Part shown: positions 2,007-16,191 of the stretch, one piece after another | How the letters are laid out: each line of letters starts with the position of its first letter | How positions within the stretch are numbered: position 1 is the first letter of the stretch | DNA from: Escherichia phage vB_EcoS_MM-1 | Sequence record: PV577657 | DNA: 64,000 bases | Direction: 5' to 3' (one strand) | Made by a program: the position numbers and the translations under genes | Notes under the pieces: generated by a model | What the model was told of the DNA's origin: nothing | The model's database searches: none | The model's input: the letters and a program-made list of their open reading frames with translations, nothing else

Positions 2007-2008
2007 AT

Positions 2009-2437: not shown

Positions 2438-2446
2438 GGAGGCAGA

Positions 2447-2960: not shown

Positions 2961-2977
2961 ATGTATTGGAGGTGAGG

Positions 2978-3430: not shown

Positions 3431-3438
3431 AATTTCAT

Positions 3439-3468
3439 TTGCAAGGGAGTATTATTTTATAGTATAAT
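3439..3468 (+). promoter_or_regulatory. sigma70-type early promoter (T5-like)
   Basis: TTGCAA, 18-nt spacer, TATAAT (3463-3468), then ATTCCCATAAATGAGAGA, resembling the PN25 downstream box. Confidence 0.5.
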
Positions 3469-3498
3469 ATTCCCATAAATGAGAGACATTAGTAAAAA

Positions 3499-3528
3499 TT
3501 GATTTTGCTAATTTTTCTTGTTTACAAT
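3499..3528 (+). promoter_or_regulatory. possible second promoter
   Basis: TTGATT, 18-nt spacer, TACAAT. Confidence 0.35.
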
Positions 3529-3534
3529 CCGCGA

Positions 3535-3953
3535 TACGGAACAGTTAGGCTGCCCCATTAAGGGTTGTTTTAACTGTTACGTGTTAGTTTTTAAACAAAT
3601 AGTTAATAGAATACTTAGCGATCTACATCCCGTAGGAACCCTGGTAAGGCCTCGAAGCAACCTAGTGTGAGGTGGTTGTGAAGTGAGACGGGAAGAGTGA
3701 AAAACTCTGAGAAGTGATGACGTAAGGTATACTGCATCTAGTATGAGCTAGTACATGAAGCATTAGGTGAGCAAATCTGGCTTAGCGGCCATCCTCAAGG
3801 ATTTGTGCGGTATAGTGAAGCGGCAGTGTAGCGTGAAAGGGGAAGTTGCCACCCCCCTTCAGTATTTGCGATTAATTTGTTGAGAAATTGACAGTAACAG
3901 TTGTTCTATTCTTTCTGAATAGTCCTAAAGAAAACTTATTTCATTTCCAACAC
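3535..3953 (+). ncRNA. candidate structured untranslated leader or ncRNA (no ORF of 60 aa or more on either strand)
   Basis: About 420 nt between promoters and the RBS at 3954; purine/G-rich composition unlike the AT-rich flanks; hairpins GAGTgaaaaACTC, ATCCTcaAGGAT and GGGG-N11-CCCC. Confidence 0.3.
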
Positions 3954-3965
3954 AGGAGTATTGTT

Positions 3966-6752
3966 GTGTTCTCAATCCTACAAGGTCATGCAGGATTTCA
4001 TCGCGATTTAGCCACAGGCATTTGGCGAGAAGTTAAAGCAGAAGACTATCTTTTTGCTAAAAGATTTTCCTCAAAGCATCCTGAAGGTAAACCAGCTTCA
4101 ATGCCCTTCAAGTTTGATGTAATTGATGAAGTTGATCCTCAAACCCTAGTAGAAATGCTCCCTCTTATGAGACGTTTAACGTCTGACCCTCATATCGTTG
4201 CGGTACGAGGTCGATGTCTTGCACCCAAAAATAATGTGCGGCGTAAGAAGGGCAACTTTAATGTATCTAACCCAAGTCATATAATTGCAATGGACGTGGA
4301 TGGTATTGTAGATACAGGTGGTTGTAACAAGTTTGATCTTGTTGGCATGGCTCGACATATTATTAGAATGTTAAATAGTATTAGTGAGGATATGTTTCCT
4401 CTTGATGCAGGGTTTATTGCTCATGCATCGTCTTCGGCTGGGCTAAAACCAGGTATCCGAATGCACTTAATACTAGAATCTAATGTTAAAGTAACTCAGG
4501 GTCAAATCAAATTCTTATTTACATCTATCAATGAAAGTAGTAGACAAAAGTATGGCTTTGATATTGCCGACTTAGCTTATTACTCTTCCGTACAGCTCCA
4601 TTATTTTGCAGATCCGTTATTTACCGATGGTATAGTAGATCCGTTTAAGGCGGAGGGTGCTTCACGTCTGGTATTTGTTAAGGGTTCTAAAGTAAACTTA
4701 CCTAATAATCTGGTTGACTATGAAACAACTAGAGGTGAGTTTAAGGAGGAGTTTTACTCTTTACTCGATCAAATTAAAGGTAAAAAAGCTGCCTCCGATA
4801 AAGTAGAGGAAACTATCAGCGAACTAGAAGAAGCTGAGGATGGAGTGTATCTACGTATCATACCTAAACTCTATCACAGAGCTTTAGAGGATGGTGTTGA
4901 TTTTGCATGGCTAGAAAAAGAAATCCGTCCAGCCTTATCAGAATATATTGCAACCAAAGATAATAGTCGTAATATTCAAGATTACTTTAATAACGGTCGT
5001 AAACAGGCTCTGAAAGCATTTGTTAATAATTCTAAACGCGATATACCTGATGTTTTAAAAGGTATTCCACTTAAAAAGCTAGAAACTAACTCTCTAGAAA
5101 CTGATAACTTCTTGAAATTAAATACTGTACCACCAGAAGGTTATATGACTTTTGTAAAAGCAAGTCTAGGTACAGGTAAAACTACGGCGGTTGTGCGTTG
5201 GTTAGATTCAGGAGTTATTAAAGGTAATTTCTTAGCAATTACCAATACTCGAGCACTGGTATCTTCAAATGCTAAGAAATTTAGTGCAGGACAATATGAT
5301 AAGTCTGTAGATATGCTTAATTTTAAGCGTGGTGCTATTGACCGTATGTCCACAACTATTCACTCTTTGCATAAGTTCAAGAGTTTTATTGGTCAAATCG
5401 ATGCAATCTTTATAGATGAATGTGATGCTGTAATGAATGACCTATTATTCGCCCCGGTTGTTAAACAACGTCGTGAATGTATTCAGGTTCTTCGGGATAT
5501 TCTTGCAACTGCAAAAATCATTATATTATCTGATGGGGATATTAGTGCAGAAACAATTGAAGCATATGGTTCTTTAATTGAGTTTGATAAACCGGTTGCA
5601 TTTTATAATCATCACCGAAAAATGCTATCAAAAGCTCATGCCTACGAGTTCCCTGATGAATCCAGTATTTGGGTTGCACTTCAGACTTCTCTAGAGATGG
5701 GTGAGAAATCTATCCTAGTATCTGACTGTGGGCCGGATGAACTGAATGAGAAGGGCATGGCGTTGCGTCGTAATACGGGTGCGTTAGTTAAGGAAATCCA
5801 CTCAAACTCTACGTCTGATGTAGATATTCGACGTATTCTGGATTACACAACTAATGAGTTAATTGACCAACAAATTGATTGCTTATTATGTAGTCCATCC
5901 GTAACGAGTGGTGTTGACTTCAACTATTTTGATAACGTATTCGTTATTACTAGAACCAGTAACCAAGCGCCAAACATGCGTTTTCAAGCAATCAGGCGCG
6001 ACCGTGGTGCTCAGAACATTTATTATTTTATTGATAAATCTACGAGTGGATTCTCCGCAGGCTCTGAACAATATAATATTGATGAAGGTTGGCTGGAGTT
6101 AGCACAGCAATTATACGCACGTCGTAGGGAGCTGGAGTCTAGGAACTATACTAGTACTTTACGTTATTACTTGCTTGATCAGGGTGCAACTATTGATATT
6201 TTCAGTGAAAGCTGGGGAACTATCGAAGGTGCAGGTAAAGAGTATACAGAAGAGCGAATCAAAGCCATTTTGTATTCAACTCCTGATTATTGTGCTCCAC
6301 GCCATGCAGATGCATATGAAGCTAAACTACTTCTTGTTCGCTATTATCATCTTGAGTCTATTAAAGATGTAACAGTTGAGCATGTTGAGCAATACATTAA
6401 GGATAAACCGAATGATCGAGCGGCATTCTTCCATAAAATGCACGAGATGTTCTGGGAAGATATTAAGAAGTGTTCAAATGTCACTATCAAACCATTCATA
6501 GAAGCTCTGAAAGGCAAGAAGAAAGATTTCTTCCTTAAAACAGGTCAGAGTGCTAACCCAAAATATGCCAGAATGTATCTTGGTATGATGGGTATTGGCA
6601 AGGATATGAACACGGAGAATATTGTAGACTGGTACAGAACTTATTGTAAAATCGAGTGTATGCCAATTCCTTTCAAATTCATGACAGAGGAAGAGAAGGC
6701 TATGGCAGAAGAAGTACTGTCCGAACTTGGAGCAACTAATGAAGACGCATAA
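3966..6752 (+). CDS. large replication protein: AEP-primase-like N-domain fused to a P-loop helicase domain (possibly the replication-origin-binding type protein of T5-like phages)
   Basis: In-frame GTG at 3966 with AGGAG at 3954-3958 (track start TTG 3888 is less likely); DxD motif IIAMDVDG, GIRMHLIL, Walker A ASLGTGKTT, Walker B IFIDECD. Confidence 0.6.
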   Translation: MFSILQGHAGFHRDLATGIWREVKAEDYLFAKRFSSKHPEGKPASMPFKFDVIDEVDPQTLVEMLPLMRRLTSDPHIVAVRGRCLAPKNNVRRKKGNFNVSNPSHIIAMDVDGIVDTGGCNKFDLVGMARHIIRMLNSISEDMFPLDAGFIAHASSSAGLKPGIRMHLILESNVKVTQGQIKFLFTSINESSRQKYGFDIADLAYYSSVQLHYFADPLFTDGIVDPFKAEGASRLVFVKGSKVNLPNNLVDYETTRGEFKEEFYSLLDQIKGKKAASDKVEETISELEEAEDGVYLRIIPKLYHRALEDGVDFAWLEKEIRPALSEYIATKDNSRNIQDYFNNGRKQALKAFVNNSKRDIPDVLKGIPLKKLETNSLETDNFLKLNTVPPEGYMTFVKASLGTGKTTAVVRWLDSGVIKGNFLAITNTRALVSSNAKKFSAGQYDKSVDMLNFKRGAIDRMSTTIHSLHKFKSFIGQIDAIFIDECDAVMNDLLFAPVVKQRRECIQVLRDILATAKIIILSDGDISAETIEAYGSLIEFDKPVAFYNHHRKMLSKAHAYEFPDESSIWVALQTSLEMGEKSILVSDCGPDELNEKGMALRRNTGALVKEIHSNSTSDVDIRRILDYTTNELIDQQIDCLLCSPSVTSGVDFNYFDNVFVITRTSNQAPNMRFQAIRRDRGAQNIYYFIDKSTSGFSAGSEQYNIDEGWLELAQQLYARRRELESRNYTSTLRYYLLDQGATIDIFSESWGTIEGAGKEYTEERIKAILYSTPDYCAPRHADAYEAKLLLVRYYHLESIKDVTVEHVEQYIKDKPNDRAAFFHKMHEMFWEDIKKCSNVTIKPFIEALKGKKKDFFLKTGQSANPKYARMYLGMMGIGKDMNTENIVDWYRTYCKIECMPIPFKFMTEEEKAMAEEVLSELGATNEDA

Positions 6753-7257
6753 ACCAATGCCTCCTATGGCATTTATCCTAGAAAAGCTTAGGTATGACGA
6801 AAGTACTGGGGACTTAATTTGGTTATCTGGCCCAAGGAAGGGAAAGGTAGCGGGCTCCAAAATGAAAACTGGGAGACAGCTAGAGTTTATGATAAATGGG
6901 GGGCGGACAGCTTACTTAGCCCATAGAATAATCTGGTTTATAAAGACAGGTGAAGATCCTGGAGATAAAACTATTGACCATAAAGACGGTGATAGTTTAA
7001 ACAACTTGTGGGATAATTTACGTAAGGCTACCTATTCCGAAAATGGAAAGAATAAGAAGTGTTCTACTAATTCTACCGGATTCACTGGAGTTGTAAAACG
7101 AGGTAATAGGTATATGGCCTACGCTTACTGCGATGGAAAGCAACATATTTTTGGTAGACGAGATACCCCGGAAGAAGCCCATCAGCTATACCTTAGGGGA
7201 GTTAAAGAGCTGTTTGGTGAATTTAATCCCTCGGAGAGATATGACAGTGAAGAATAA
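6727..7257 (+). CDS. HNH homing endonuclease
   Basis: AYLAHRIIWFIKTGEDPGDKTIDHKDGDSLNNLWDNL; start overlaps the 3' end of the preceding gene. Confidence 0.8.
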   Translation: MEQLMKTHKPMPPMAFILEKLRYDESTGDLIWLSGPRKGKVAGSKMKTGRQLEFMINGGRTAYLAHRIIWFIKTGEDPGDKTIDHKDGDSLNNLWDNLRKATYSENGKNKKCSTNSTGFTGVVKRGNRYMAYAYCDGKQHIFGRRDTPEEAHQLYLRGVKELFGEFNPSERYDSEE

Positions 7258-7474
7258 AAAATGGGAAACAAGGAAGTTTCCAGTAAAAGAACGTAAAGTT
7301 CCTGTTTATGATACTTCGGAGAAGCTATGTAGGGTGGTACCGCACAGATTAGCTGGCATCCCTAACATATCCGAGTGGTTACTTAAACAACGGAGGACTA
7401 GCGTATCCCTTCGCATAGGGTTTGAGTTAGATAAAGTATATGCTGAACTTTCTTCTTTGCTCAAGGAATCGTAA
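7241..7474 (+). CDS. hypothetical basic protein
   Basis: ATG at 7241 with GGAGAG RBS; in frame with track ORF 7133..7474. Confidence 0.4.
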   Translation: MTVKNKKWETRKFPVKERKVPVYDTSEKLCRVVPHRLAGIPNISEWLLKQRRTSVSLRIGFELDKVYAELSSLLKES

Positions 7475-7482
7475 AAATTTAT

Positions 7483-7511
7483 TTGCATAGTGCAAAAAAT
7501 TTCTGTATAAT
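7483..7511 (+). promoter_or_regulatory. PN25-like strong early promoter
   Basis: TTGCAT, 17 nt, TATAAT, then AGATTCATAAATTTGAGAGAGGAG, near-identical to the T5 PN25 core and downstream box; palindrome TTTGCA-tag-TGCAAA overlaps the -35. Confidence 0.75.
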
Positions 7512-7542
7512 AGATTCATAAATTTGAGAGAGGAGTTTAAAT

Positions 7543-8247
7543 ATGGCTGGTTCTCGTAGAAAGAAACATATCCATGAAATCCCGGATGAAGTCTTTAAAA
7601 AGGTTATAGAGCATCTGGAGAACGGTGGTACTAAGAAAGCAGCATGTGAAATGCTCGGCGTATCATCCAATCCAACTATGGAAAGGATGATTGAAGAATG
7701 GCAAGACCGCCAGATTCAAGTTGCCGAAATGAAGAAAAAGAAACGTGGCACACTCATTGAAGGCATTGAGTTAGCTAACGTTATTGAGCAGTATTTATCT
7801 GGTGATTCTTTTGAAGAAATTGCCGATCGTAATTACCGCTCTGTAGCAATGGTTAAATCTGTTCTGGAACGATATGGTGCTCTACTTCGTTTGAACGATA
7901 TTGTAGATCCATTGAATCCTCCAATTATTCCTGATGATGCTGTAGCAGAAGAATTTGCAGTTGGTGAGCTTGTTTGGGTTCCTGGATACCAGTGTATCGG
8001 TGAAATCAAAAAAGCAATGGATAATCCTGTTGGTTGCTACCGTGTATGGCTTCTATCCGAAGGCAAACAACAGAACGTTCATTATATGAATTACGAGCTG
8101 GCTTCTGTTAAACATCTGGAAAAGTTAGGGGTAGACGTAAAATCTCTAGGGTATAAGTGGACTCGTGAAGAAATTATTACGTTGATTAACGAAGCTGTTA
8201 AGGCTGCTCTGAAACTTGATAAAGAAAAAGGAAAACGCCGTGAGTAA
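7543..8247 (+). CDS. helix-turn-helix DNA-binding protein
   Basis: RBS GAGAGGAG; N-terminal GGTKKAACEMLGVS HTH-like segment. Confidence 0.55.
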   Translation: MAGSRRKKHIHEIPDEVFKKVIEHLENGGTKKAACEMLGVSSNPTMERMIEEWQDRQIQVAEMKKKKRGTLIEGIELANVIEQYLSGDSFEEIADRNYRSVAMVKSVLERYGALLRLNDIVDPLNPPIIPDDAVAEEFAVGELVWVPGYQCIGEIKKAMDNPVGCYRVWLLSEGKQQNVHYMNYELASVKHLEKLGVDVKSLGYKWTREEIITLINEAVKAALKLDKEKGKRRE

Positions 8248-8491
8248 GCTAACAGATTTGCTTAAGGATGGTGAAACAAAAACCGTGTATCGTAGAAGCT
8301 GGGATAATGACAATAATGGCTTAGTGTTACTAACTTTAGACGCTGACTCAGATGTAGCTACCCAACATACCTGGGTAGCTGGTAATTATCCCTATAGTGA
8401 GGTTGTTACGTTAACAGTATGCGAAGCTATTGCCGACGATTGGGAGATTGCCAGCATTGATGATATGCTTGCTGTTGGCCTGGTGGAGTAA
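8216..8491 (+). CDS. hypothetical protein (start may be GTG at 8240)
   Basis: ORF track; overlaps upstream gene. Confidence 0.5.
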   Translation: MIKKKENAVSKLTDLLKDGETKTVYRRSWDNDNNGLVLLTLDADSDVATQHTWVAGNYPYSEVVTLTVCEAIADDWEIASIDDMLAVGLVE

Positions 8492-8508
8492 CTACTGAAA
8501 AATTTCAG

Positions 8509-8537
8509 TTGCTTAATCCTATAATTCTTGATATAAT
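8509..8537 (+). promoter_or_regulatory. sigma70-type early promoter
   Basis: TTGCTT, 17 nt, TATAAT. Confidence 0.6.
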
Positions 8538-8594
8538 ATTCTCATAGTTTGAAAGAACTATTCTGTTTAATTCTTAATTAAGGAAATATAAAAT

Positions 8595-9005
8595 ATGACT
8601 ACTCCAACTCAGTGGACTGATGAACTGTTCGAAAAAATGTCTTCCGAATACGTTGCTCGTATGGAGCAATTCCCAGAGGATGAACGTCCGGGTGTTAGCA
8701 TGGAAATTGTTAGCGAAATTGCCCAGGAAAATGGTGTAACTCCGAACGGTTTTCGTATGAAGCTGACTAAAGCAGGTTTGTATATCAAGAAAGCTGCTGG
8801 CTCTGCTTCTAAATCTAGCGCATCTACTGGAGAAAAGGCTTCTGGTGGTTCTCGTACCTCCAAAGCTCAAGCTCATGCCGATCTTCGTTCAGCATTCTCT
8901 GATGCTGGCTTAGCACCGGATTTTCTGGATGATGCAATTATCGATAAACTGACCGGTAAAGCGGCTGCTCATCTGGCAGAAGCAATCCGAGCTATCACTA
9001 AGTAA
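8595..9005 (+). CDS. hypothetical protein with HeH/SAP-like motif; codon usage suggests high expression
   Basis: Motif EIAQENGVTPNGFRMKLTKAG resembles the repeats in 12003..12770; GCT/CTG-rich codon usage. Confidence 0.55.
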   Translation: MTTPTQWTDELFEKMSSEYVARMEQFPEDERPGVSMEIVSEIAQENGVTPNGFRMKLTKAGLYIKKAAGSASKSSASTGEKASGGSRTSKAQAHADLRSAFSDAGLAPDFLDDAIIDKLTGKAAAHLAEAIRAITK

Positions 9006-9041
9006 TTTTTAGATAAATCCACCAACAAAAGGAACACAGTT

Positions 9042-9338
9042 ATGACCAAAGCTGAAATTATCGCACAATGTGAAAAATTTGGTGAGTTTTATCTTCATTA
9101 CGAGAAACTTCGTCAGAAAGGAACCACGTATCTTCAGGGTACGATGGAATTTGATCCAGCCCAAGATAAATATCTAGCTGAGCGTATTAAACGTGAACGT
9201 ATTCGTAAAGCGAAAGATGATGAGATCCTTGTCTTCTCTCGTACTAATGATAGCTTCCGTTTTATTCCTGTCGAAAAAGTCCGTCGTGTGACTAGCCTCC
9301 AATCAGAGTTAGATCGTGCTTCTCCAGTAGGCCGATAA
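9042..9338 (+). CDS. hypothetical protein
   Basis: ORF track; terminator immediately downstream. Confidence 0.55.
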   Translation: MTKAEIIAQCEKFGEFYLHYEKLRQKGTTYLQGTMEFDPAQDKYLAERIKRERIRKAKDDEILVFSRTNDSFRFIPVEKVRRVTSLQSELDRASPVGR

Positions 9339-9348
9339 GAAACCAATT

Positions 9349-9371
9349 AGCCCCTATATGGGGCTTTTTGT
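9349..9371 (+). terminator. rho-independent terminator
   Basis: AGCCCC-tata-GGGGCT followed by TTTTT. Confidence 0.7.
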
Positions 9372-9388
9372 GTATTTGGGATATGTAA

Positions 9389-9697
9389 ATGAGCGAACAG
9401 GTAAATCAAAACTATGAAGGACACGTTGATGACCAGTCCATCATACTTTGGGAGAAGGAGGGAGAACAAGTAAGATTAACAGTATCTGAATTTCGTGGGA
9501 ATCTATACATGGGTATTCGTTACTGGCTTCTTGATATTAATGATGAGTGGTTTCCAACGAAATCTGGCTTCTCTTTTCCTTACACCCTAGAAACAACATC
9601 ACAGCTTTTCTATGCGTTTACACAGATTCTTAGCGAATCTGAGGTTTTACATGAAGTACAGAAACGAGCTGAAGAACTCAAAGCCAAGAATGCCTAG
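9389..9697 (+). CDS. hypothetical protein
   Basis: ORF track. Confidence 0.55.
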   Translation: MSEQVNQNYEGHVDDQSIILWEKEGEQVRLTVSEFRGNLYMGIRYWLLDINDEWFPTKSGFSFPYTLETTSQLFYAFTQILSESEVLHEVQKRAEELKAKNA

Positions 9698-9713
9698 TTC
9701 TTGGCTTTTTCTT
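9683..9713 (+). terminator. rho-independent terminator overlapping the stop codon
   Basis: GCCAAGAA-tgcctag-TTCTTGGC then TTTTT. Confidence 0.65.
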
Positions 9714-9724
9714 TATAAATGTAC

Positions 9725-9753
9725 TTGCTTTCAACTCAGTTTTGTTATATAAT
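9725..9753 (+). promoter_or_regulatory. sigma70-type early promoter
   Basis: TTGCTT, 17 nt, TATAAT, then ATTTATATAAATTAATGAGAGGG. Confidence 0.6.
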
Positions 9754-9783
9754 ATTTATATAAATTAATGAGAGGGTTGCAAA

Positions 9784-10056
9784 GTGAAAAAGATAAGTAT
9801 AAGTACACTTAAACCTTTCCCGTACATCGGACAGCCTCTTATACTTATGTGGGAGGAGAAGATTAATGGGGAAAAGTATACTAAAACTAGAAGTGGGTAT
9901 AAGCTGACTTCACTTCATTACGAAAAAGAAGTATTAGTAGCTGAAATATACTCTCCGTTGTCAGATAGGCTAGTAAAAACTACATATTTGCATCGTTGCA
10001 AAAATTATACATGGCACGGATCCACTAGACAACCCTCATACTGTGAGGCAGAATAA
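9784..10056 (+). CDS. hypothetical protein (GTG start)
   Basis: ORF track. Confidence 0.45.
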   Translation: MKKISISTLKPFPYIGQPLILMWEEKINGEKYTKTRSGYKLTSLHYEKEVLVAEIYSPLSDRLVKTTYLHRCKNYTWHGSTRQPSYCEAE

Positions 10057-11028
10057 ATGACCAATGTAAAAGACTTTATTAAACGCTGTCAAGAAGCATA
10101 TTATCAAGGTATGTCTTTAATCTCTGACGAAGAATATGATCGTCTGATTAAAAGATTTCCGTTAGAAGAAGAGATCGGGCCTAAGGGCGATATTCCACAT
10201 CTGTATCGTATGTATTCTTTACAGAAAGTTTATTATAATCGTGGAGATAAACCCCCGTTTAACCCATTAGGTCAGGTAGAAACTGATAAGTTAGATGGTT
10301 GTGCAATTTCTCTGTTATATATTAATGGCGAATTTGTTCAAGCACTAACTCGTGGTAACGGTATTCTAGGGAATGATGTCACAAGCAACGTAAGATTGCT
10401 GAACATCCCTAAAAAGATTTCCCAAAAAGTACCTACTCAAATCACTGGTGAAGTTCTAATTACAAAAGAAGTAGAAAATAAACGTAACTTTGCCTCTGGT
10501 GCTATTAACCTCAAAGATAGTGATGATTTTGTACAACGTATCGGAGAAGGTGGTTTAATCTTCGTTGCATATGGTATCCAGTGTTCTGCTGAATCTGTAG
10601 GTATTACAGAAGCATATTTAAAAGATATGCTTTGGCTGGAGAATGAGAACTTCTTAACAGTTGTTAATGTGCGTTCTTTCTTTAAATGGATTCCGACGGA
10701 CGGTAAAGTTGTTCGTATTAATGATAACAACAAATTCTTCCGTGAAGGCTGGACTAATAAATTCCCTCGTGGAGCATTCGCTATTAAAGAGGATGAAGAA
10801 GGCGAGATTACAACTCTTACTAAAGTTGAATGGCAGGTAGGAGCTTCTGGTAAAGTAACTCCAGTTGGTTATTTCGAACCGGTAATTATTGATGATGCTA
10901 CAATTGTTAAAGCGACTCTTAATAACGTTGATTATATTAACTCTCTTGATCTAGAGATCGGTTGCCAGATTCGAGTGATTCGTGCTGGTGGTGTAATCCC
11001 GTGCATAGTAGAGCGAGTATATGATTAA
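10057..11028 (+). CDS. NAD-dependent DNA ligase, adenylation and OB-fold part (subunit A of a split ligase)
   Basis: KxDG adenylation motif (KLDGCA), TRGNGILGNDVT, OB-fold end IRAGGVIPCIVERV. Confidence 0.85.
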   Translation: MTNVKDFIKRCQEAYYQGMSLISDEEYDRLIKRFPLEEEIGPKGDIPHLYRMYSLQKVYYNRGDKPPFNPLGQVETDKLDGCAISLLYINGEFVQALTRGNGILGNDVTSNVRLLNIPKKISQKVPTQITGEVLITKEVENKRNFASGAINLKDSDDFVQRIGEGGLIFVAYGIQCSAESVGITEAYLKDMLWLENENFLTVVNVRSFFKWIPTDGKVVRINDNNKFFREGWTNKFPRGAFAIKEDEEGEITTLTKVEWQVGASGKVTPVGYFEPVIIDDATIVKATLNNVDYINSLDLEIGCQIRVIRAGGVIPCIVERVYD

Positions 11029-11068
11029 TACATAGCCCTTTGCTACCCATCTACCATATCGGAATTAT

Positions 11069-11097
11069 AAAGTGGTTATTGACATTTTCGCCGCTTA
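11069..11097 (+). promoter_or_regulatory. sigma70 promoter inside the ligase spacer
   Basis: TTGACA, 17 nt, TATACT. Confidence 0.55.
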
Positions 11098-11171
11098 GGT
11101 ATATACTATTATCATTCAGTTGAGGGATAGAAAGTTATGGCGAGGGTAAGCAAAGTTAGTTAAAATTGTAG

Positions 11172-11200
11172 TTGCTAAATGCTTAAATACTTGTTATAAT
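11172..11200 (+). promoter_or_regulatory. sigma70-type early promoter
   Basis: TTGCTA, 17 nt, TATAAT, then ATTTATATAAATTGA. Confidence 0.6.
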
Positions 11201-11230
11201 ATTTATATAAATTGATAAGGAAGAAATTTG

Positions 11231-12010
11231 ATGAAAATCGAAATTCCAACACAATGTCCCTCTTGTGGTTCTAAGCTAGATCTTGTCAACGGACAATTAT
11301 TTTGTCGGAATAAGTCCAACTGTCCAGCGCAATCAAGTAAGTTAATTGAGAACTTCTGTACAAAAATGAAGTTAAAGGGCTTTGGTCCAAAAACTATTGA
11401 AAAGCTGGAGCTGACGAAGATCTCAGAACTATTTTACCTAACCGAAGAAGATTTGGTTAGAGCCGTGGGTAGCAAGGTTGCCGCTAAGTTAATTAGCGAA
11501 TTAAATACTAAAGTTCGCGGAGACATTGACTTTGGTTCAGTTCTCGGTTCTTTAGGAATCCCTCTAATTGGAGAGGTTGCAGCAAAGAAATTATCCCAAA
11601 ATTGCACTAGCTTCCACGATGTGAAGGCTGACGGCAAGGCTGGAGAAAACTACAAAGCCTGGCTAAATTCCCCGCAAGGCAAGGATGTTATCGAACTACC
11701 GTGGAAATTCTCAACTGGTATTAAGGGCACTAAAGCTGACGTCATCATTACAGATGAATTAGTTGCCCAGCCAAATGGAATCGCGGTATGTATTACCGGA
11801 TCTTTGCAAGATTTTGCAAATCGAACGGATGCAACAAACTATTTAGAAAGTCTAGGGTATACGGTTAAGAAATCCGTTACCAAAGACGTAAAATACCTGA
11901 TCTGTGAGGATGAATCAAAACGTTCTTCCTCATCTTATAAGAAAGCCGAAACGAATGGGATAGAAATCCTGTCGATTAAAGAACTATTGGAGAAAAATAA
12001 TAATGTCTAA
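11231..12010 (+). CDS. NAD-dependent DNA ligase, Zn-finger/HhH/BRCT part (subunit B)
   Basis: CPSCGSKLDLVNGQLFCRNKSNCPAQ matches the LigA zinc finger; BRCT-like C-terminus; RBS AAGGAAG. Confidence 0.85.
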   Translation: MKIEIPTQCPSCGSKLDLVNGQLFCRNKSNCPAQSSKLIENFCTKMKLKGFGPKTIEKLELTKISELFYLTEEDLVRAVGSKVAAKLISELNTKVRGDIDFGSVLGSLGIPLIGEVAAKKLSQNCTSFHDVKADGKAGENYKAWLNSPQGKDVIELPWKFSTGIKGTKADVIITDELVAQPNGIAVCITGSLQDFANRTDATNYLESLGYTVKKSVTKDVKYLICEDESKRSSSSYKKAETNGIEILSIKELLEKNNNV

Positions 12011-12770
12011 ACTGAACTGGAACGTAGAAGGTGTAACCGAGTCTCTGAAAGCAAAAGCCACTGCTCTGGGTGTTTCTGTAATCTCTCAAGAACAAGTAGC
12101 TGCTATCGCTGCTGAACTGGCTGCTGAAACTGGCAAAGATGTTACTGCTCGCTCTGTTGGCTCTAAACTGCGTAAAGAAGGTTTTGAAGTACAGAAAGCT
12201 AACGAAGTACAGAAATCCCCGTGGACTCCTGAGCAGGAAGCTGAACTGGTTGATTTCCTGAACGCTCATGCTGGTCAGTATACCTATGCTGAAATCGCTG
12301 CTGCTGTAGCTGGTGGTCAGTTCGGTGCTAAACAGGTACAGGGTAAGATCCTGAGTCTGGAAATGACCGCTTCTGTTAAACCAACTGAAAAAGCTGCTGC
12401 TGTTCGTTCCTTTACTCCGGATGAAGAAACTGATTTTGTTAATCAGGTTGTTGCTGGTGCTACTATTGAAGCTATCGCTGCTCACTTCGGTCGTAATATC
12501 AAGCAGATCCGTGGTAAAGCTCTGAGCCTGCTTCGTGAAGGTCGTATCGCTGCTATGCCGGTACAGGAAACTTCCAGTGCTAAAACTCGTGAAGATCTGT
12601 TAGAAGGTCTGGATCTGGTTAACATGACTGTTGCTGAGATCGCTGAGAAAACTGGTAAGTCTGAGCGCGGTGTTAAATCTATGCTGTCTCGTCGTGGTCT
12701 GGTTGCTAAGGACTATGATGGTGCCGCTAAGCGTGCTAAACTGGATGCAAAAGCTGCGGCTGCTGAATAA
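12003..12770 (+). CDS. abundant DNA-binding-like protein with three HeH/SAP-like repeats (possibly the D5-type protein)
   Basis: Internal repeats (VTARSVGSKLRKEG / AKQVQGKILSLE / IKQIRGKALSLLREG / ERGVKSMLSRRG); strongly biased GCT/CTG codon usage; size about 28 kDa. Confidence 0.5.
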   Translation: MSKLNWNVEGVTESLKAKATALGVSVISQEQVAAIAAELAAETGKDVTARSVGSKLRKEGFEVQKANEVQKSPWTPEQEAELVDFLNAHAGQYTYAEIAAAVAGGQFGAKQVQGKILSLEMTASVKPTEKAAAVRSFTPDEETDFVNQVVAGATIEAIAAHFGRNIKQIRGKALSLLREGRIAAMPVQETSSAKTREDLLEGLDLVNMTVAEIAEKTGKSERGVKSMLSRRGLVAKDYDGAAKRAKLDAKAAAAE

Positions 12771-12786
12771 TCTGGTAAATTAAACC

Positions 12787-12820
12787 TAAGGGGAGGGGGC
12801 TATGCTCCTTCCCCTTTTTG
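12787..12820 (+). terminator. rho-independent terminator
   Basis: AAGGGGA ... TCCCCTT stem followed by TTTTT. Confidence 0.6.
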
Positions 12821-12852
12821 CATTTAGAAGGCACGAAAGCGTGCAAAGGAGA

Positions 12853-14325
12853 ATGACCTTGTTTAACGTGCAAGCTGTAGTGTTGAAGATGCTTCTAGCT
12901 TCTGAACAGAAGCAAATAGCATTGGAAACATTCTCAAAACTGCATAAAGATCATTTTAATGACGCTTTCTCCTCAATTTACCAAGCCGTCCAGAATTATT
13001 ATAAAAAATATAACACAATGCCGTCCATTGACGCACTGATGCTTGAGGCTAATAGGAACGCCCGCCTTTCTCAAGCTCTAGTCGTTTTAGCTAACACTCA
13101 AATTCCAGAAGTGAGCATGGAACAGGCACTTGAAGTCCTAGAGGCCGAATATACACAGGATTTATTCCTAAAGCTTCTAGAAACAGACGTGCTTCAAGAT
13201 TTAACAATGCTGGATCAGGGAGAAATTCTCAACCGAGTTGCCTCCCTTCACTTAAAATTAGAAGAGAAAGTAACGAATACTGGAAAAGTATTCAACGCAG
13301 ATAACATGCGTATTTTCCAGAGAGAAGAAGATACCAAACTGAACCTAATCGCTCTTGGTATTTGTAATGAGTTCGACGCTCAAATTGGTTTAGCTCGCAC
13401 AGAAACGTTACTGCTTGGTGGTTGGCGTGGTACTGGTAAATCCATTATCTGTTCAAACATACAGGTTCAGCAATATTTGAATGGAGATATTGCTCCATAC
13501 TTCTCAATTGAGATGAAAGAACATGAAGTATTTAGACGTAATCTAGCCATGCTAGCTGGTGTATCAGCACTAGCAATGCGTAATAATACTCTAGAAGGTG
13601 CAGCTCTGTTGAGACTAGCCAGAACTAGAGCTAGGATGTTCAACGGTGGTGAAGAGCTTTTCGATAACTTCGTTAAACAGTATACAATGGCTAAGATGAG
13701 TGATTTCTACGATATGGAGAGTAAGCTAATAGAAGGGTATGAGCTACATACTCCTATGATTATTGTTTATGACCCTGAGTTGTCTATTACAACAGTTGAC
13801 GTAGAATTAAATAAATTAGTTGCTAGATATGGTGATAAAGTTACAGTAGCTCTACTTGACTATATTAACCAAACCCGACTTCCAGACTCTAAAACCATTG
13901 ATATGTATGACTGGAAAGAACAGATGGTTGTTAGCTCGTCTTTCAAATCTATCTGCCAGAAACATAACGTGGCTGGCGTAGCTCCTTACCAGATCGATCA
14001 AGACGGTAGAACACGTATGTCAAAGGGGATTCTTGATTCCGCAGACATGGCTGCTAATCTTAATGCTGCAAAAGCTGATAATGGTCAAGGTGCTATTATG
14101 TTTGACTTCGTTAAGACTCGTTCTTCTGATAGCGTGAAGTTTATGCCTAAAATGAACTGGGAAACTCTGCGAATGGATAACACTACCAACCTAGCAATGG
14201 AAGATATATCTCAAATGGAAGCTGAGTTCGTTATCCCTATTGAGAAGGATAAGCCGGCTCAACCTAAACGTGCTAAGAAAGACAAAGCTGAAAATTCAAC
14301 AGGTGAACAGGCCAGCGATATATGA
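12853..14325 (+). CDS. DnaB/gp4-like replicative helicase (RecA-fold)
   Basis: Walker A GGWRGTGKS; ATG 12853 with AAAGGAGA RBS (track start 12802 lies inside the terminator hairpin). Confidence 0.7.
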   Translation: MTLFNVQAVVLKMLLASEQKQIALETFSKLHKDHFNDAFSSIYQAVQNYYKKYNTMPSIDALMLEANRNARLSQALVVLANTQIPEVSMEQALEVLEAEYTQDLFLKLLETDVLQDLTMLDQGEILNRVASLHLKLEEKVTNTGKVFNADNMRIFQREEDTKLNLIALGICNEFDAQIGLARTETLLLGGWRGTGKSIICSNIQVQQYLNGDIAPYFSIEMKEHEVFRRNLAMLAGVSALAMRNNTLEGAALLRLARTRARMFNGGEELFDNFVKQYTMAKMSDFYDMESKLIEGYELHTPMIIVYDPELSITTVDVELNKLVARYGDKVTVALLDYINQTRLPDSKTIDMYDWKEQMVVSSSFKSICQKHNVAGVAPYQIDQDGRTRMSKGILDSADMAANLNAAKADNGQGAIMFDFVKTRSSDSVKFMPKMNWETLRMDNTTNLAMEDISQMEAEFVIPIEKDKPAQPKRAKKDKAENSTGEQASDI

Positions 14326-14855
14326 TAACACAGGAAAGGCTAAAAGAGTTATTTGATTACTCCCCAGGAACTGGGGAGTTTACTAGAAAAGTATCTAGAG
14401 GTAATCAGAAAGCTGGTAGTATAGCTGGTTCTTTAAGAAAAGATGATTATATATGTATATGGGTAGATGGAAAGCCTTACTATGCGCATCAACTAGCTTT
14501 TCTCTATATGGAAGGTTATTTACCTGAAGAAGTAGACCATATAAACCGTATACGAAGTGATAATCGTTGGGTTAACCTTAAAGATTCTTCTCACCAAGAG
14601 AATAGCAGGAATAAAGCAGCTAAAAGTAAATCAGGGTATATAGGAGTTAGTTGGAATAAACAAAGGCAAAAATGGCAAGTTCAACTAAGAGATACCAATA
14701 AAAAGAAAATATTCGGTGGATATTTTGAGTACCAGAATTTAGAATCAGCAGTAGATAAGATTAATAATCTACGATTACAATTTCATGGGGAAAATGCTAT
14801 TCAAGAAATATTCGACCCGTCTAATTATCCTGCATTAGAGGAGATAAATTCATGA
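14322..14855 (+). CDS. HNH homing endonuclease
   Basis: YAHQLAFLYMEGYLPEEVDHINRIRSDNRWVNL; overlaps both helicase end and primase start. Confidence 0.8.
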   Translation: MITQERLKELFDYSPGTGEFTRKVSRGNQKAGSIAGSLRKDDYICIWVDGKPYYAHQLAFLYMEGYLPEEVDHINRIRSDNRWVNLKDSSHQENSRNKAAKSKSGYIGVSWNKQRQKWQVQLRDTNKKKIFGGYFEYQNLESAVDKINNLRLQFHGENAIQEIFDPSNYPALEEINS

Positions 14856-15742
14856 GTAGAATAACAGAATTACTTGATCTTAAGGGAATTGAGTATAAAG
14901 ATACTGGTGGAGATATTTTAATCTGTTGCTTAAATCCATATCATGATGATAAACACCCAAGTTTGCGTATTGATCCTGAAACCGGGATTATGCACTGCTT
15001 GAGTTGCGGTTTTGGCAAAGGTATACCTAGTATTTATCATTATTTTAATGAGACTCAATATAGACAATCTCCAAGACTATCCCAAGTACGTAAAAAGATT
15101 TCAGAGATTAGAAATGGATCTACGAATCTTGCAATCCCAGAATCTGCCTGCCTTTTCGAAGGTGATTTCCGAGGTATAAGTTCTAAGACCTTGAAGAAAT
15201 ATTTTGCTTTCCAACACCAAGAGAACTGGGAAGGCAGAATTGTATTCCCAATCACAGATGCTGTTGGACGCAATATCCTATTTTTGGGTCGTTCTATAAA
15301 CAGTTCTGCCCCTCCTAAATACTTAGTAAAACCAAAACAGGTTTCACCACCAATTTTCCCTGTACGATATAATACTCCAGTTCTTATTCTAGTTGAAGGT
15401 ATCTTTGATATGCTGAACCTAGAGGATAGTGGTATAGACTATGCTTCTTGCTGCTTTGGTACACATCAGTTTACTTCAGACAACATTGCAGATAAGTTCA
15501 GTCCGTACATTATTGCTGGTGTTAAAGTTGTTGTTATCTTACTAGATAATGATGCTTCTGGTAATAAAGCTGCACAAGCACTGGCCAAGCTAATTCGTAC
15601 AAAAACGCGTTTAACACCTGTAGTTGCTAACTTTCTTCTGCCTGAAGGTAAAGACCCAGGTGACTTAAATAAAGAAGAAATTGATATGTTAGCAAAACGT
15701 ATTGAAATTTTAGTTGCTGAATCGCTTAAAGATTTGGTATAA
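14852..15742 (+). CDS. DnaG-like DNA primase (zinc-binding domain plus Toprim)
   Basis: CCLNPYHDDKHPSLRIDPETGIMHCLSCGFGK zinc-binding motif; Toprim-like LVEGIFD and LLDNDASG. Confidence 0.85.
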   Translation: MSRITELLDLKGIEYKDTGGDILICCLNPYHDDKHPSLRIDPETGIMHCLSCGFGKGIPSIYHYFNETQYRQSPRLSQVRKKISEIRNGSTNLAIPESACLFEGDFRGISSKTLKKYFAFQHQENWEGRIVFPITDAVGRNILFLGRSINSSAPPKYLVKPKQVSPPIFPVRYNTPVLILVEGIFDMLNLEDSGIDYASCCFGTHQFTSDNIADKFSPYIIAGVKVVVILLDNDASGNKAAQALAKLIRTKTRLTPVVANFLLPEGKDPGDLNKEEIDMLAKRIEILVAESLKDLV

Positions 15743-15768
15743 TAGTCCTAAATAACTGAGGAGTTACT

Positions 15769-16098
15769 ATGGAATATGTATATATTTATGCGGATGTTCC
15801 AGTGTATGATAGTATAACACACAAAGAGGTTAAACTAGAGCGGTTTACAACACTGGAGTCCCTTAACAAACGAAAGAATTTCCATTTATTTGGTGATCCT
15901 AAATTACCTGCATCTTATATTTACTTTAAAGTAAAAGATACAGGTCAAGAGGTATACCTAACATATGATTGGGCTGTTGTAGAAAATACTGAGCAATCTA
16001 TGAAAGCGCTAGATGCTTTTCTGCGCATAGATGAAGAATTTCGGGTACTAGAAAAGCAGCGCAATGAAATGCGTAAATTACTTCACACATATAAATAG
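15769..16098 (+). CDS. hypothetical protein
   Basis: ORF track; RBS GAGGAG. Confidence 0.55.
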   Translation: MEYVYIYADVPVYDSITHKEVKLERFTTLESLNKRKNFHLFGDPKLPASYIYFKVKDTGQEVYLTYDWAVVENTEQSMKALDAFLRIDEEFRVLEKQRNEMRKLLHTYK

Positions 16099-16101
16099 TA
16101 T

Positions 16102-16130
16102 TTGCTATTATCCCAATATTTTGATATAAT
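16102..16130 (+). promoter_or_regulatory. sigma70-type early promoter
   Basis: TTGCTA, 17 nt, TATAAT. Confidence 0.6.
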
Positions 16131-16191
16131 ATATTGGTAAGTTAGAGAAGAAACACTGAAGTTATACTTACTTACCAAGAGGAGATTAAAT

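What the first reader, a model, noticed from the sequence alone, without database searches (positions are those of the whole stretch)
8595..12770. Two highly expressed-looking proteins sharing a repeated HeH/SAP-like motif
ORF 12003..12770 contains three or four internal repeats (consensus roughly V-T/K-x-x-S/G-x-G-x-K-L/I-R/L-K/S-x-G). The same motif occurs once in ORF 8595..9005 (VTPNGFRMKLTKAG). Both genes use host-optimal GCT/CTG/CGT codons, unlike their neighbours. This resembles Rho-N/SAP-type helix-extension-helix DNA/RNA-binding motifs; these may be abundant nucleoid- or transcription-modulating proteins.
Basis: seen in the sequence. Interest (0 to 1): 0.4.

Follow-up and report, generated by a model that had tools for sequence, protein, structure and literature searches.

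The report
Phage T5 D5 and D3 DNA-binding proteins

Summary
The window is a T5-like phage (Tequintavirus), 100% identical over 8400-13000 to Escherichia phage vB_EcoS_MM-2. ORF 12003..12770 is the T5 D5 protein, identical to the T5 copy. ORF 8595..9005 is the T5 D3 protein.

Both observations hold. D5 contains four related repeats, and the motif recurs in D3. D5 has the strongest codon bias of the window's 64 ORFs, above the major capsid gene; D3 ranks 3rd-4th.

The fold assignment is wrong. AlphaFold2 models show three-helix helix-turn-helix units, and the motif is the turn plus the third helix. The best solved-structure match for both models is the GcrA DNA-binding domain. Pfam gives sigma-70 region 4, homeodomain-like and Myb matches, and no SAP, Rho_N or HeH match.

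The same module also forms the N-terminus of the pre-early DNA-binding protein A2 (57322..57729, minus strand). A2 is a full-length paralogue of D3; both fall in phrog_1725.

The functional guess, abundant DNA- and transcription-modulating proteins, agrees with published work. D5 is a DNA-binding protein affecting replication and late expression (1979). A 2026 preprint describes its HTH fold and reports retron escape mutations in D5 and D3.

Verdict: already known, low interest.

The parts
8509..8537 (+). T5-type early promoter-like site (TTGCTT, 17 nt spacer, TATAAT) upstream of D3; AAGGA Shine-Dalgarno at about 8581-8585
   Evidence: Read directly in the sequence. The consensus scan missed it because TTGCTT matches only 3 of 6 positions of TTGACA. 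That TTGCTT is the -35 of strong T5 promoters such as PN25 is from memory.
8595..9005 (+). D3 gene (136 aa, 14.5 kDa, pI 5.7)
   Evidence: Annotated 'D3 protein' or 'DNA binding protein' in near-identical phages. phrog_1725 E 4.7e-50. CAI 0.562, Nc 35.2.
8595..8792 (+). D3 N-terminal three-helix HTH domain (residues 1-66; helices 9-24, 28-45, 50-59).
8793..8852 (+). D3 Ser/Ala/Gly/Lys-rich linker (residues 67-86), predicted disordered. It carries the conserved GG(S/A)RTSKA box.
   Evidence: pLDDT below 50 over residues 67-86. Conservation. The box aligns with GGGSSxRKA of the A2 protein.
8853..9002 (+). D3 C-terminal helical domain (residues 87-136), the most conserved part (DKLTGKAAAHLAEAIRKITK). 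It is unrelated to the repeats.
   Evidence: Alignment. No profile similarity to any D5 repeat (probability <= 0.2%). Function not established.
11079..11200 (+). Two promoter-like sites in the ligA-ligB spacer: TTGACA-17-TATACT at 11079-11107 and TTGCTA-17-TATAAT with an upstream TG at 11172-11200. They are positioned to drive ligB and D5.
   Evidence: These are consensus matches only.
12003..12770 (+). D5 gene (255 aa, 27.1 kDa, pI 6.8). Its start overlaps the ligB stop (ATGTCTAA). GGAG lies about 10 nt upstream.
   Evidence: 100% identical at protein level to the D5 locus of a 121,750-bp contig (L014), which I take to be T5 itself. phrog_323 'transcriptional regulator, D5-like' E 1.4e-71. 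Annotations. CAI 0.738, Nc 29.6. Upstream sequence.
12003..12200 (+). D5 repeat 1 (residues 1-66; helices 11-22, 29-43, 49-58). Motif at residues 47-60.
   Evidence: Invariant residues W6, R50, K55, L56, R57.
12201..12377 (+). D5 repeat 2 (residues 67-125; helices 76-88, 95-101, 109-118), with a Myb/GcrA-like 'W-T-x-E-x-E' start. Motif at residues 107-120.
   Evidence: Weak Myb matches. Invariant residues Q113, G114, K115, L117.
12378..12563 (+). D5 repeat 3 (residues 126-187; helices 139-150, 155-162, 166-178). Motif at residues 166-180.
   Evidence: R2-R3 hhalign 96%, E 3e-9. HTH_23 match at residues 151-184. Invariant residues G171, K172.
12564..12719 (+). D5 repeat 4 (residues 188-239; helices 210-217, 221-231), similar to sigma-70 region 4.2. 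Motif at residues 220-232.
   Evidence: Sigma70_r4_2 scores 28.8 bits against a cut-off of 25.7. 48 of 50 family members match. Invariant residues G223, L228, R231.
12720..12767 (+). D5 conserved C-terminal helix (residues 240-254, GAAKRAKLDAK...)
   Evidence: Role unknown; a contact for cooperative binding is my inference.
12788..12816 (+). Intrinsic-terminator-like hairpin (13 pairs, 8 G-C) followed by a T-run, 18 nt after the D5 stop
   Evidence: A hairpin plus T-run, with different sequences, follows D5 in 23 of 23 divergent relatives.
57322..57729 (-). Pre-early A2 protein (135 aa, pI 9.1): a third carrier of the same N-terminal HTH module and a full-length paralogue of D3
   Evidence: Annotated A2 in MT080103 and OQ885479. 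phrog_1725 E 4.2e-51, the same family as D3. hhalign of the A2 family against the D5 family: 95.8%, E 7e-9. Against the D3 family: 91%, E 1e-6 over 93 columns. Window HMM scan.
7594..7881 (+). Two tandem HTHs (residues 18-113) of the 234-aa protein annotated 'D2 protein', colinear with D5 repeats 3-4. A probable fourth carrier of the module.
   Evidence: Smith-Waterman against R4 z = 7.5. hhalign 67%, E 5e-5 over 88 columns. Sub-threshold HTH_28 and HTH_23 Pfam matches. Weaker evidence than for the others.

Best explanation
ORF 12003..12770 is the D5 protein of a T5-like phage and ORF 8595..9005 is its D3 protein.

D5 is an array of four tandem three-helix helix-turn-helix (HTH) domains plus a short conserved C-terminal helix. 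The 'motif' is the turn and third (recognition) helix of each HTH. It carries the invariant Gly, Lys and Arg positions.

Inferred mechanism for D5:
- It is made in near-stoichiometric, structural-protein-like amounts early in infection.
- Its several HTH recognition helices insert into successive major grooves of duplex phage DNA with little sequence specificity.
- The coated template supports replication, shuts off early transcription and permits late transcription.

D3 carries one copy of the same HTH, then a disordered linker and an unrelated conserved helical domain. It is a paralogue of the pre-early DNA-binding protein A2. D3 most likely acts as a second abundant DNA-binding factor of the early phase.

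Shown here: gene identity, repeat architecture, HTH fold, paralogy, codon bias and transcription-unit layout.
Taken from the literature: DNA binding, and the roles in replication and late expression.
Inferred: multi-groove coating and the role of D3.
For: Identity.
- 100% nucleotide identity to phage vB_EcoS_MM-2 over 8400-13000. D3 and D5 annotations in relatives.
- D5 protein is 100% identical to the copy in a 121,750-bp contig.
- phrog_323 'D5-like' E 1e-71 and phrog_1725 'DNA binding protein' E 5e-50.

Fold.
- D5 model pLDDT 94.2, with four units of three helices.
- Pfam: Sigma70_r4_2 above its cut-off in the window protein and matched by 48/50 family members; HTH_23 by 34/50; Myb by 17/50; GcrA by 9/50.

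The motif is the functional surface.
- 13 of 18 invariant columns of a 50-sequence family alignment lie in the four third helices, which make up 44 of 255 residues. Hypergeometric P = 1e-7.

Paralogy.
- D3 against D5 repeat 1: 91-93%.
- A2 against D5: 95.8%. A2 against D3: 91%.
- D3 and A2 fall in the same PHROG.
- The precomputed Pfam family PF26822.1 is on all A2 homologues and on some D3 and D5 homologues.

Abundance.
- D5 has the highest CAI and lowest Nc of 64 ORFs, above the major head protein. D3 and the ssDNA-binding protein come next.
- D5 has the lowest Nc among its neighbours in 16 of 23 divergent loci and the second lowest in 5 more.
- The D5 orthologue is among the top spectral-count proteins of phiR2-01 (PMC8624392).

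Expression signals.
- Strong promoter-like sites upstream, and a terminator after D5 conserved in 23/23 relatives.

Function from the literature.
- D5 is a DNA-binding protein affecting replication and late gene expression (McCorquodale 1979, cited in PMC12630848).
- bioRxiv 10.64898/2026.07.11.737809: D5 has an HTH that binds retron msdDNA and is a 26-kDa monomer. They also carry D3 E30Q and G85D, both nearly invariant positions.
- A2 is a DNA-binding protein needed for second-step transfer (10.64898/2026.04.02.716235).

Synteny.
- A D3 homologue lies upstream of D5 in 22 of 23 divergent loci.
Against: - No binding experiment could be run here. That all four repeats contact DNA is inference.
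- Repeat 2 is net acidic (3 K+R against 7 D+E), and D5 as a whole is neutral (pI 6.8), unlike classical basic nucleoid proteins.
- pTM is 0.55, so the relative arrangement of the repeats is not predicted.
- The D3 model is only moderate (pLDDT 74), and Foldseek found no significant PDB match for it.
- D3 on its own did not trigger the retron, and I retrieved no direct DNA-binding data for D3.
- The same preprint lists a premature stop (W74*) in D5 of a viable escape phage. This sits oddly with D5 being required for replication.
- The properties of cooperative, sequence-independent duplex binding come from my memory of papers I could not retrieve (Rice et al. 1979, J Biol Chem; Fujimura and Roop 1983, J Virol).
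Confidence: 0.8

Rival explanations
1. One reading: the repeats are SAP / Rho-N / helix-extension-helix motifs, that is, two-helix nucleic-acid-binding modules.
For: - The motif 'G-x-K-L-R-K-x-G' loosely resembles the second half of the SAP consensus (comparison from memory).
- In repeats 1 and 2 the link between helices 2 and 3 is 5-7 residues, longer than a classic HTH turn.
Against: - No SAP, Rho_N, HeH or LEM Pfam match at E <= 1 for either protein. None is among the top families for 50 relatives.
- Every unit has three helices.
- An independent AlphaFold3 analysis calls the fold HTH.
Confidence: 0.03
2. D5 is primarily a specific transcription factor that contacts RNA polymerase, rather than a general DNA-coating protein. 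It could act as a sigma region-4-like or GcrA-like adaptor that redirects host RNA polymerase from early to late T5 promoters.
For: - Repeat 4 exceeds the Pfam Sigma70_r4_2 cut-off, and 48 of 50 relatives match it, best E 6e-12.
- The best structural match is GcrA. From memory, GcrA works with sigma-70.
- D5 is needed for late gene expression.
- Databases label it 'transcription factor' or 'transcriptional regulator'.
Against: - No sigma region 2 or 3 domain architecture and no GcrA C-terminal domain were detected.
- Similarity to sigma region 4.2 is common among generic HTHs.
- Codon bias above that of the capsid gene, plus very high spectral counts, argue for stoichiometric rather than catalytic or regulatory amounts.
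- From memory, the late-expression defect could be secondary to the replication defect.
Confidence: 0.15
3. The codon bias does not reflect expression level. It would instead be a compositional quirk (Ala-rich, higher G+C) or a sign of recent acquisition from a host genome.
For: - D5 and D3 are 15-17% Ala and have G+C of 0.46-0.47, against about 0.39 for the window.
Against: - GC3 is not raised (0.31-0.32). The preference is for GCT, CGT and CTG specifically.
- RSCU correlates at 0.91 with the major capsid gene.
- The low Nc is conserved in D5 orthologues across phages with G+C of 0.35-0.45, including marine ones.
- The proteins are confined to T5-like phages.
- Proteomics shows high abundance.
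Confidence: 0.04

Closest known systems
Bacteriophage T5 gene D5 product (T5.118; phrog_323 'transcriptional regulator, D5-like')
   Same: Identical protein sequence. Same position between ligB and the DnaB-like helicase. Same size: 27 kDa calculated, 26 kDa by mass photometry in the 2026 preprint.
   Different: Nothing differs; it is the same protein. What this analysis adds: the four-repeat dissection, GcrA as the closest solved fold, and the conserved codon bias and terminator across the family.
Bacteriophage T5 pre-early A2 protein (phrog_1725; Pfam PF26822)
   Same: D3 and A2 have the same length and the same layout (W-containing HTH domain, Gly/Ser/Lys linker box, helical C-domain), and they fall in the same PHROG. 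The A2 N-domain is also homologous to D5 repeat 1.
   Different: - A2 is pre-early, basic (pI 9.1) and needed for second-step DNA transfer. D3 is early and acidic (pI 5.7), and its role is uncharacterised.
- The C-terminal halves align only through the first helix.
GcrA DNA-binding domain (Caulobacter, PDB 5yiu; Pfam PF07750)
   Different: - The window proteins do not match the GcrA Pfam model. Only 9 of 50 D5 relatives match it weakly, best E 0.003.
- No GcrA C-terminal domain was detected.
- D5 has four tandem copies; from memory, GcrA has one.
Myb/SANT tandem repeats (c-Myb R1-R3, Timeless DNA-binding repeats, Bdp1 SANT)
   Different: - The three regularly spaced tryptophans are absent.
- The Pfam Myb score is below the cut-off for the window protein: 17.6 against 24.4 bits.
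Sigma-70 region 4.2 (Pfam PF08281)
   Same: Repeat 4 scores above the curated cut-off, as it does in nearly all relatives.
   Different: No region 2 and no other sigma domain. Only one of the four repeats is involved.
SAP / HeH / Rho N-terminal motif
   Same: A short helical nucleic-acid-binding element with a conserved Gly and basic residues.
   Different: Those are two-helix motifs; these units have three helices with an HTH. No profile or fold match was found.

Membership tests
T5 D5 protein family (phrog_323) | Full-length sequence match to T5 D5 | tested here: met
   100% protein identity to the D5 locus of a 121,750-bp contig. phrog_323 E 1.4e-71 over residues 1-253.
T5 D5 protein family (phrog_323) | Position in the early replication cluster, between ligB and the DnaB-like helicase | tested here: met
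T5 D5 protein family (phrog_323) | Binds double-stranded DNA; needed for replication and late expression | not testable with these tools
   Literature only: the 1979 title cited in PMC12630848 and msdDNA binding in the 2026 preprint.
T5 A2/D3 family (phrog_1725) | Full-length profile match of ORF 8595..9005 | tested here: met
   phrog_1725 E 4.7e-50, residues 1-136. A2 matches the same family at E 4.2e-51. hhalign of the A2 family against the D3 family: 91%, E 1e-6.
T5 A2/D3 family (Pfam PF26822) | Match to the Pfam model | tested here: inconclusive
   PF26822.1 is precomputed on all A2 homologues and on 3 D3 and 5 D5 homologues. The model is absent from the local Pfam copy, so the window proteins could not be scored.
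SAP / HeH / Rho_N motif | Match to the SAP, HeH, LEM or Rho_N profiles | tested here: not met
   No such family at E <= 1 for either protein. None among the 25 most-matched families of 50 relatives.
SAP / HeH / Rho_N motif | Two helices joined by an extended loop, with no third helix | tested here: not met
Helix-turn-helix (three-helical) DNA-binding domains | Three-helix bundle with helix 2, a turn and helix 3, and structural matches to solved HTH domains | tested here: met
GcrA family (PF07750) | Match to the family profile at its cut-off | tested here: not met
   No hit for the window proteins at E <= 1. 9 of 50 relatives match weakly, best E 0.0032. No GcrA sequence hit in PDB with the family profiles at E <= 10.
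GcrA family (PF07750) | Fold of the DNA-binding domain | tested here: met
Sigma-70 family | Region 4.2 HTH | tested here: met
   PF08281 scores 28.8 bits against a cut-off of 25.7, at residues 204-230.
Sigma-70 family | Region 2 (core binding and -10 recognition) | tested here: not met
   No Sigma70_r2 match in the window protein or among the top families of 50 relatives.
Myb/SANT repeats | Profile match at the cut-off, and spaced tryptophans | tested here: not met
   Myb_DNA-binding scores 17.6 bits against a cut-off of 24.4. Only W74 (F137 in repeat 3) occupies the first Trp position. 17 of 50 relatives match at E <= 0.1.

The most novel reading that the evidence does not exclude
One GcrA-like HTH module has been duplicated through the T5 genome and would form a staged, phage-encoded 'chromatin' system.
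- Copies: one in pre-early A2, one in early D3, two in the 234-aa 'D2' protein and four in D5.
- These proteins would successively coat and organise the incoming and then replicating phage DNA.
- D5's four-HTH array would act as the switch from early to late transcription.
- Bacterial immunity (the type IX retron) would have evolved to sense exactly this module. That would explain why escape mutations fall in D5, D3 and probably the 234-aa protein.
Probability: 0.2. Interest if true: 0.5.

Novelty: already known. Interest (0 to 1): 0.2.

Why it matters
D5 is one of the oldest characterised T5 early proteins. A 2026 preprint has also identified it as the trigger of a retron defence system.

Three things are settled here:
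- The same module is shared with D3 and A2.
- Extreme codon optimisation and a dedicated terminator are conserved in D5 relatives, including marine T5-like phages.

These points give a rational basis for mutagenesis: which helix-3 residues to change, and which repeat to delete. They also help interpret the retron escape mutations, since G53 and G232 are the motif's glycines.

None of this changes what these proteins are thought to do. The practical value is better annotation. D3 and A2 are paralogues. 'Helicase' for the 234-aa protein is doubtful. Any 'SAP/HeH' label would be wrong.

Tried and rejected
- Sequence search of PDB with the single proteins gave only non-significant hits: Myb E 0.56 and ribosomal L11 E 0.68.
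- With family profiles, the D5 family gave only an engineered engrailed homeodomain (E 0.003) and Timeless (E 0.087). The D3 family gave nothing meaningful.
- The D3 C-terminal domain showed no relation to any D5 repeat or to the D3 N-domain. Its fold remains unassigned. I considered a helix-hairpin-helix reading of 'LTGKAAAHL' but have no evidence for it.
- PF26822 could not be examined because it is not in the local Pfam copy.
- The exhaustive HMM search with the D3 profile returned 200 representatives. The 150 listed are all D3-sized, so it neither confirmed nor refuted cross-retrieval of A2 or D5.
- Rfam found no RNA family in 7000-14500. There are no tRNA genes in the window.
- The key old papers (PMC353123, PMC4743489) are not held. 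The phiR2-01 supplements are not held.
- The DRT4 paper on a T5 'DNA binding protein' concerns ORF55, not D5 or D3.

Full report
WHAT THE WINDOW IS. A megablast of 8400-13000 against phage records gives 100% identity over the whole query to Escherichia phage vB_EcoS_MM-2 (PV577658). It gives 96-98% identity to many T5-like phages of the genus Tequintavirus. In annotated relatives, ORF 8595..9005 is 'D3 protein' or 'DNA binding protein'. ORF 12003..12770 is 'D5 protein / DNA-binding protein / D5-like transcriptional regulator'. D5 sits between the NAD-ligase subunit B gene and the DnaB-like helicase gene. The D5 protein is 100% identical to the copy in a 121,750-bp contig, which I take to be T5 itself. 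PHROGs places D5 in phrog_323 ('transcriptional regulator, D5-like', E 1.4e-71). It places D3 in phrog_1725 ('DNA binding protein', E 4.7e-50).

CHECK OF THE OBSERVATION: REPEATS. I divided the 255-aa protein into R1 (1-66), R2 (67-125), R3 (126-187) and R4 (188-239).
- Smith-Waterman scores against 500 shuffles: R2-R3 z = 7.8, R1-R4 z = 3.5, R2-R4 z = 3.0, R3-R4 z = 2.9.
- With sub-alignments cut from a 50-sequence family alignment, hhalign gives R2-R3 96% (E 3e-9), R1-R4 80%, R1-R3 76% and R3-R4 64%.
- There are therefore four repeats in two subtypes.

CHECK OF THE OBSERVATION: D3. The resemblance to D3 covers a whole domain. D3 residues 1-71 align to D5 residues 1-68 at 91% probability, E 1e-6. 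The D3 N-domain matches R1 at 93% and R4 at 89%.

CHECK OF THE OBSERVATION: CODON USAGE. I called 64 non-overlapping ORFs in the window.
- D5 has the highest E. coli codon adaptation index, 0.738. The window mean is 0.295 (sd 0.114).
- The major head protein gene (44358..45734, minus strand; phrog_10) is second at 0.673. D3 is third at 0.562. The ssDNA-binding protein gene (21096..21869; phrog_1607) is fourth at 0.540.
- The immediate neighbours of D5 and D3 score 0.15-0.36.
- In D5, 17 of 19 Leu are CTG, 10 of 12 Arg are CGT and 39 of 44 Ala are GCT.
Effective number of codons: D5 29.6 (rank 1), capsid 32.6, SSB 35.0, D3 35.2, median 45.0. RSCU correlation with the capsid gene: 0.91 for D3 and D5, 0.89 for SSB, median 0.45.
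- Both halves of the observation are confirmed.

WHAT THE MOTIF IS. The AlphaFold2 model of D5, built on the 50-sequence alignment, has mean pLDDT 94.2. It shows four units of three helices:
- repeat 1: helices 11-22, 29-43 and 49-58;
- repeat 2: helices 76-88, 95-101 and 109-118;
- repeat 3: helices 139-150, 155-162 and 166-178;
- repeat 4: only two helices called, 210-217 and 221-231;
- a C-terminal helix at 240-254.

pTM is 0.55, as expected for beads on a string. Of the 18 invariant columns of the family alignment, 13 fall in these four third helices, which hold 44 of the 255 residues. Hypergeometric P = 1e-7.

FOLD MATCHES.
- Pfam agrees. In D5, Sigma70_r4_2 exceeds its curated cut-off at residues 204-230. 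HTH_23, HTH_28, Myb and HTH_33 give sub-threshold matches on the other repeats.
- Across 50 relatives, 48 match Sigma70_r4_2, 34 match HTH_23, 17 match Myb and 9 match GcrA.
The units are helix-turn-helix domains of the three-helical GcrA/Myb-like kind.
- Membership of the GcrA, Myb or sigma families proper is not met (see the membership table). The statement is about fold and likely mode of action.

THE SAME MODULE ELSEWHERE IN THE WINDOW. HMMs of D5 repeat 1 and of the D3 N-domain, searched against all 529 stop-to-stop fragments of the window, both pick up ORF 57322..57729 on the minus strand (E 1e-4 and 5e-4).
- This ORF is the pre-early A2 protein. It lies next to A1, in the terminal-repeat region.
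- The A2 family profile matches the D5 family at 95.8% (E 7e-9). It matches the D3 family at 91% (E 1e-6) over 93 columns, running through the HTH, the Gly/Ser/Lys linker box and into the first C-terminal helix.
- PHROGs already groups A2 and D3 in phrog_1725.
- The precomputed Pfam family PF26822.1 is on every A2 homologue and on some D3 and D5 homologues.
- So this paralogy is implicit in existing databases.
- The 234-aa protein annotated 'D2 protein' (7543..8247) has two HTHs colinear with D5 repeats 3-4: Smith-Waterman z = 7.5, hhalign 67%, E 5e-5. This evidence is weaker.

COMPARATIVE EVIDENCE. A pattern-plus-tblastn scan of viral contigs returned 79 loci. I analysed 23 of them, 22 divergent at 47-77% identity plus the T5 locus itself.
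- All four D5 repeats are present in every one.
- A D3 homologue with both of its domains lies 2-5 kb upstream of D5 in 22 of 23.
- D5 has the lowest effective number of codons among its neighbours in 16 loci and the second lowest in 5 more, across G+C contents of 0.35-0.45.
- A G+C-rich hairpin followed by a T-run lies within about 75 nt after the D5 stop in all 23, with unrelated stem sequences.

EXPRESSION SIGNALS IN THE WINDOW.
- The terminator after D5 is at 12788-12816.
- Two promoter-like sites lie in the ligA-ligB spacer: TTGACA-17-TATACT at 11079-11107, and TTGCTA-17-TATAAT with a TG at 11172-11200.
- D3 has its own TTGCTT-17-TATAAT site at 8509-8537.
- ligB shares the transcription unit with D5 but has a CAI of only 0.246. 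The difference in output is therefore probably set at translation. This is my inference.

WHAT THE LITERATURE SAYS.
[quoted passage not shown] 1979, J Virol 29:322; the title and a summary are cited in PMC12630848). The paper itself is not held.
- From memory, not retrieved: D5 binds duplex DNA cooperatively (Rice et al. 1979, J Biol Chem) and modulates T5 DNA polymerase at nicks (Fujimura and Roop 1983, J Virol).
- In the T5-like Yersinia phage phiR2-01, the D5 orthologue was among the highest spectral-count proteins, together with the major tail and head proteins (PMC8624392).
- A July 2026 preprint (10.64898/2026.07.11.737809) identifies T5 D5 as the trigger of the type IX retron-Kva2. It describes an HTH in an AlphaFold3 model that binds the msdDNA stem-loop, and measures D5 as a 26-kDa monomer.
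- That preprint reports escape phages with D5 G53D, W74*, V149I and G232D plus D2 E76Q, and with D3 E30Q and G85D.
D5 G53, W74 and G232, and D3 E30 and G85, are all nearly invariant in my alignments.
- A2 is described as a DNA-binding protein essential for second-step transfer (10.64898/2026.04.02.716235).

MOST LIKELY MECHANISM.
- Shown here: D5 is a four-HTH array whose conserved surface is the set of four recognition helices. It is translated from the most codon-optimised gene of this window, at the end of a strongly promoted, terminated transcription unit.
- From the literature: it binds DNA and is needed for replication and the early-to-late switch.
- Inferred: one monomer places several recognition helices in successive major grooves of duplex phage DNA with low sequence specificity. 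Neighbouring monomers may interact through the conserved C-terminal helix, giving a coated template.
- Inferred for D3: with one HTH, a flexible linker and a separate conserved domain, D3 is the early-phase paralogue of A2 and probably a second abundant DNA-binding factor. Its C-domain may mediate oligomerisation or partner binding.
- Caveats: D5 is neutral (pI 6.8) and repeat 2 is acidic. The repeat arrangement is not predicted. I found no binding data for D3. A stop codon in D5 of a viable escape phage is unexplained.

RIVALS.
- The SAP/HeH reading is contradicted by the tests above.
- A more specific role as an RNA-polymerase-contacting factor, sigma region-4-like or GcrA-like, is not excluded. 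It rests only on generic HTH similarity, and it fits poorly with structural-protein-level codon bias.
- Codon bias as a compositional artefact is contradicted by unchanged GC3, by the match to the capsid gene's codon choice, by conservation across hosts and by proteomics.

NOVELTY AND VERDICT. The genes, their DNA-binding nature, the HTH fold of D5 and the A2-D3 grouping are all already on record. This analysis adds detail:
- four repeats in two subtypes;
- the GcrA DNA-binding domain as the closest solved structure for both D5 and D3;
- the A2/D3 module being homologous to D5 repeat 1;
- family-wide codon bias and terminator;
- the mapping of the retron escape mutations onto the motif.

The finding is real. 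Its functional guess is right, its structural label is wrong, and it is of low novelty.

Noticed in passing
window 57322..57729 (-): The pre-early A2 protein carries the same N-terminal HTH module as D3 and D5 repeat 1, and is a full-length paralogue of D3 (same PHROG; hhalign 91-96%). Its codon bias is also above average (Nc 37.8, rank 7 of 64; CAI 0.408).
   Followed up: yes
window 7543..8247 (+), residues 18-113 = 7594..7881: The 234-aa protein annotated 'D2 protein' (LR597659) or 'helicase' (PV577658, phrog_3611) has two tandem HTHs colinear with D5 repeats 3-4 and no helicase motif in Pfam. The name 'D2' is used in PMC3632103 for the 929-aa bipolar helicase instead, so the 'helicase' label on the 234-aa protein may be a transferred error. 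Residue 76 of the 234-aa protein is Glu, which fits the 'D2 E76Q' retron escape mutation. Residue 76 of the large helicase ORF, as I translated it, is His.
   Followed up: partly
window 12788..12816 and 12802..14325 (+): The annotated ATG (12802) of the DnaB-like helicase lies inside the stem of the D5 terminator hairpin, and its first codons translate the hairpin. The PHROG match starts at residue 15, and another ATG lies at 12853 just after AAGGAGA. The true start may be downstream of the annotated one.
   Followed up: partly
window 21096..21869 (+): The ssDNA-binding protein gene (phrog_1607) is the other strongly codon-optimised early gene (CAI 0.540, Nc 35.0, RSCU r = 0.89 with the capsid gene). 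The four most biased genes of the window are thus three DNA-binding proteins plus the major head protein.
   Followed up: partly
window 6727..7257 (+) and 14322..14855 (+): Two HNH endonuclease ORFs have the lowest CAI in the region (0.17 and 0.15). They are present in vB_EcoS_MM-2 but absent at the same places in T5_ev212 (compare). They are probably mobile homing endonucleases inserted between replication genes.
   Followed up: no
window 10057..12010 (+): The NAD-dependent DNA ligase is split into two ORFs, ligA and ligB. A 200-bp spacer between them contains two strong promoter-like sites (11079-11107 and 11172-11200).
   Followed up: no
window 9389..9697 (+): A 102-aa ORF matches the PC4 transcriptional coactivator / ssDNA-binding domain (Pfam PF02229, E 8e-8, above its cut-off). 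It is followed by a terminator-like hairpin at 9680-9708.
   Followed up: no
D5 residue W74 (window 12222..12224): The 2026 retron preprint lists a premature stop at W74 of D5 in a viable escape phage. D5 is described elsewhere as required for replication and late expression. The two statements are hard to reconcile. A mixed population, a suppressor, or a conditional requirement could explain it.
   Followed up: no
D3, D5 and A2 homologues: Pfam family PF26822.1 is precomputed on all A2 homologues and on a few D3 and D5 homologues. It is not in the local Pfam copy, so its name and boundaries could not be checked.
   Followed up: partly
window 1..64000: No tRNA genes (ARAGORN) in the window, and no Rfam family in 7000-14500.
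   Followed up: yes
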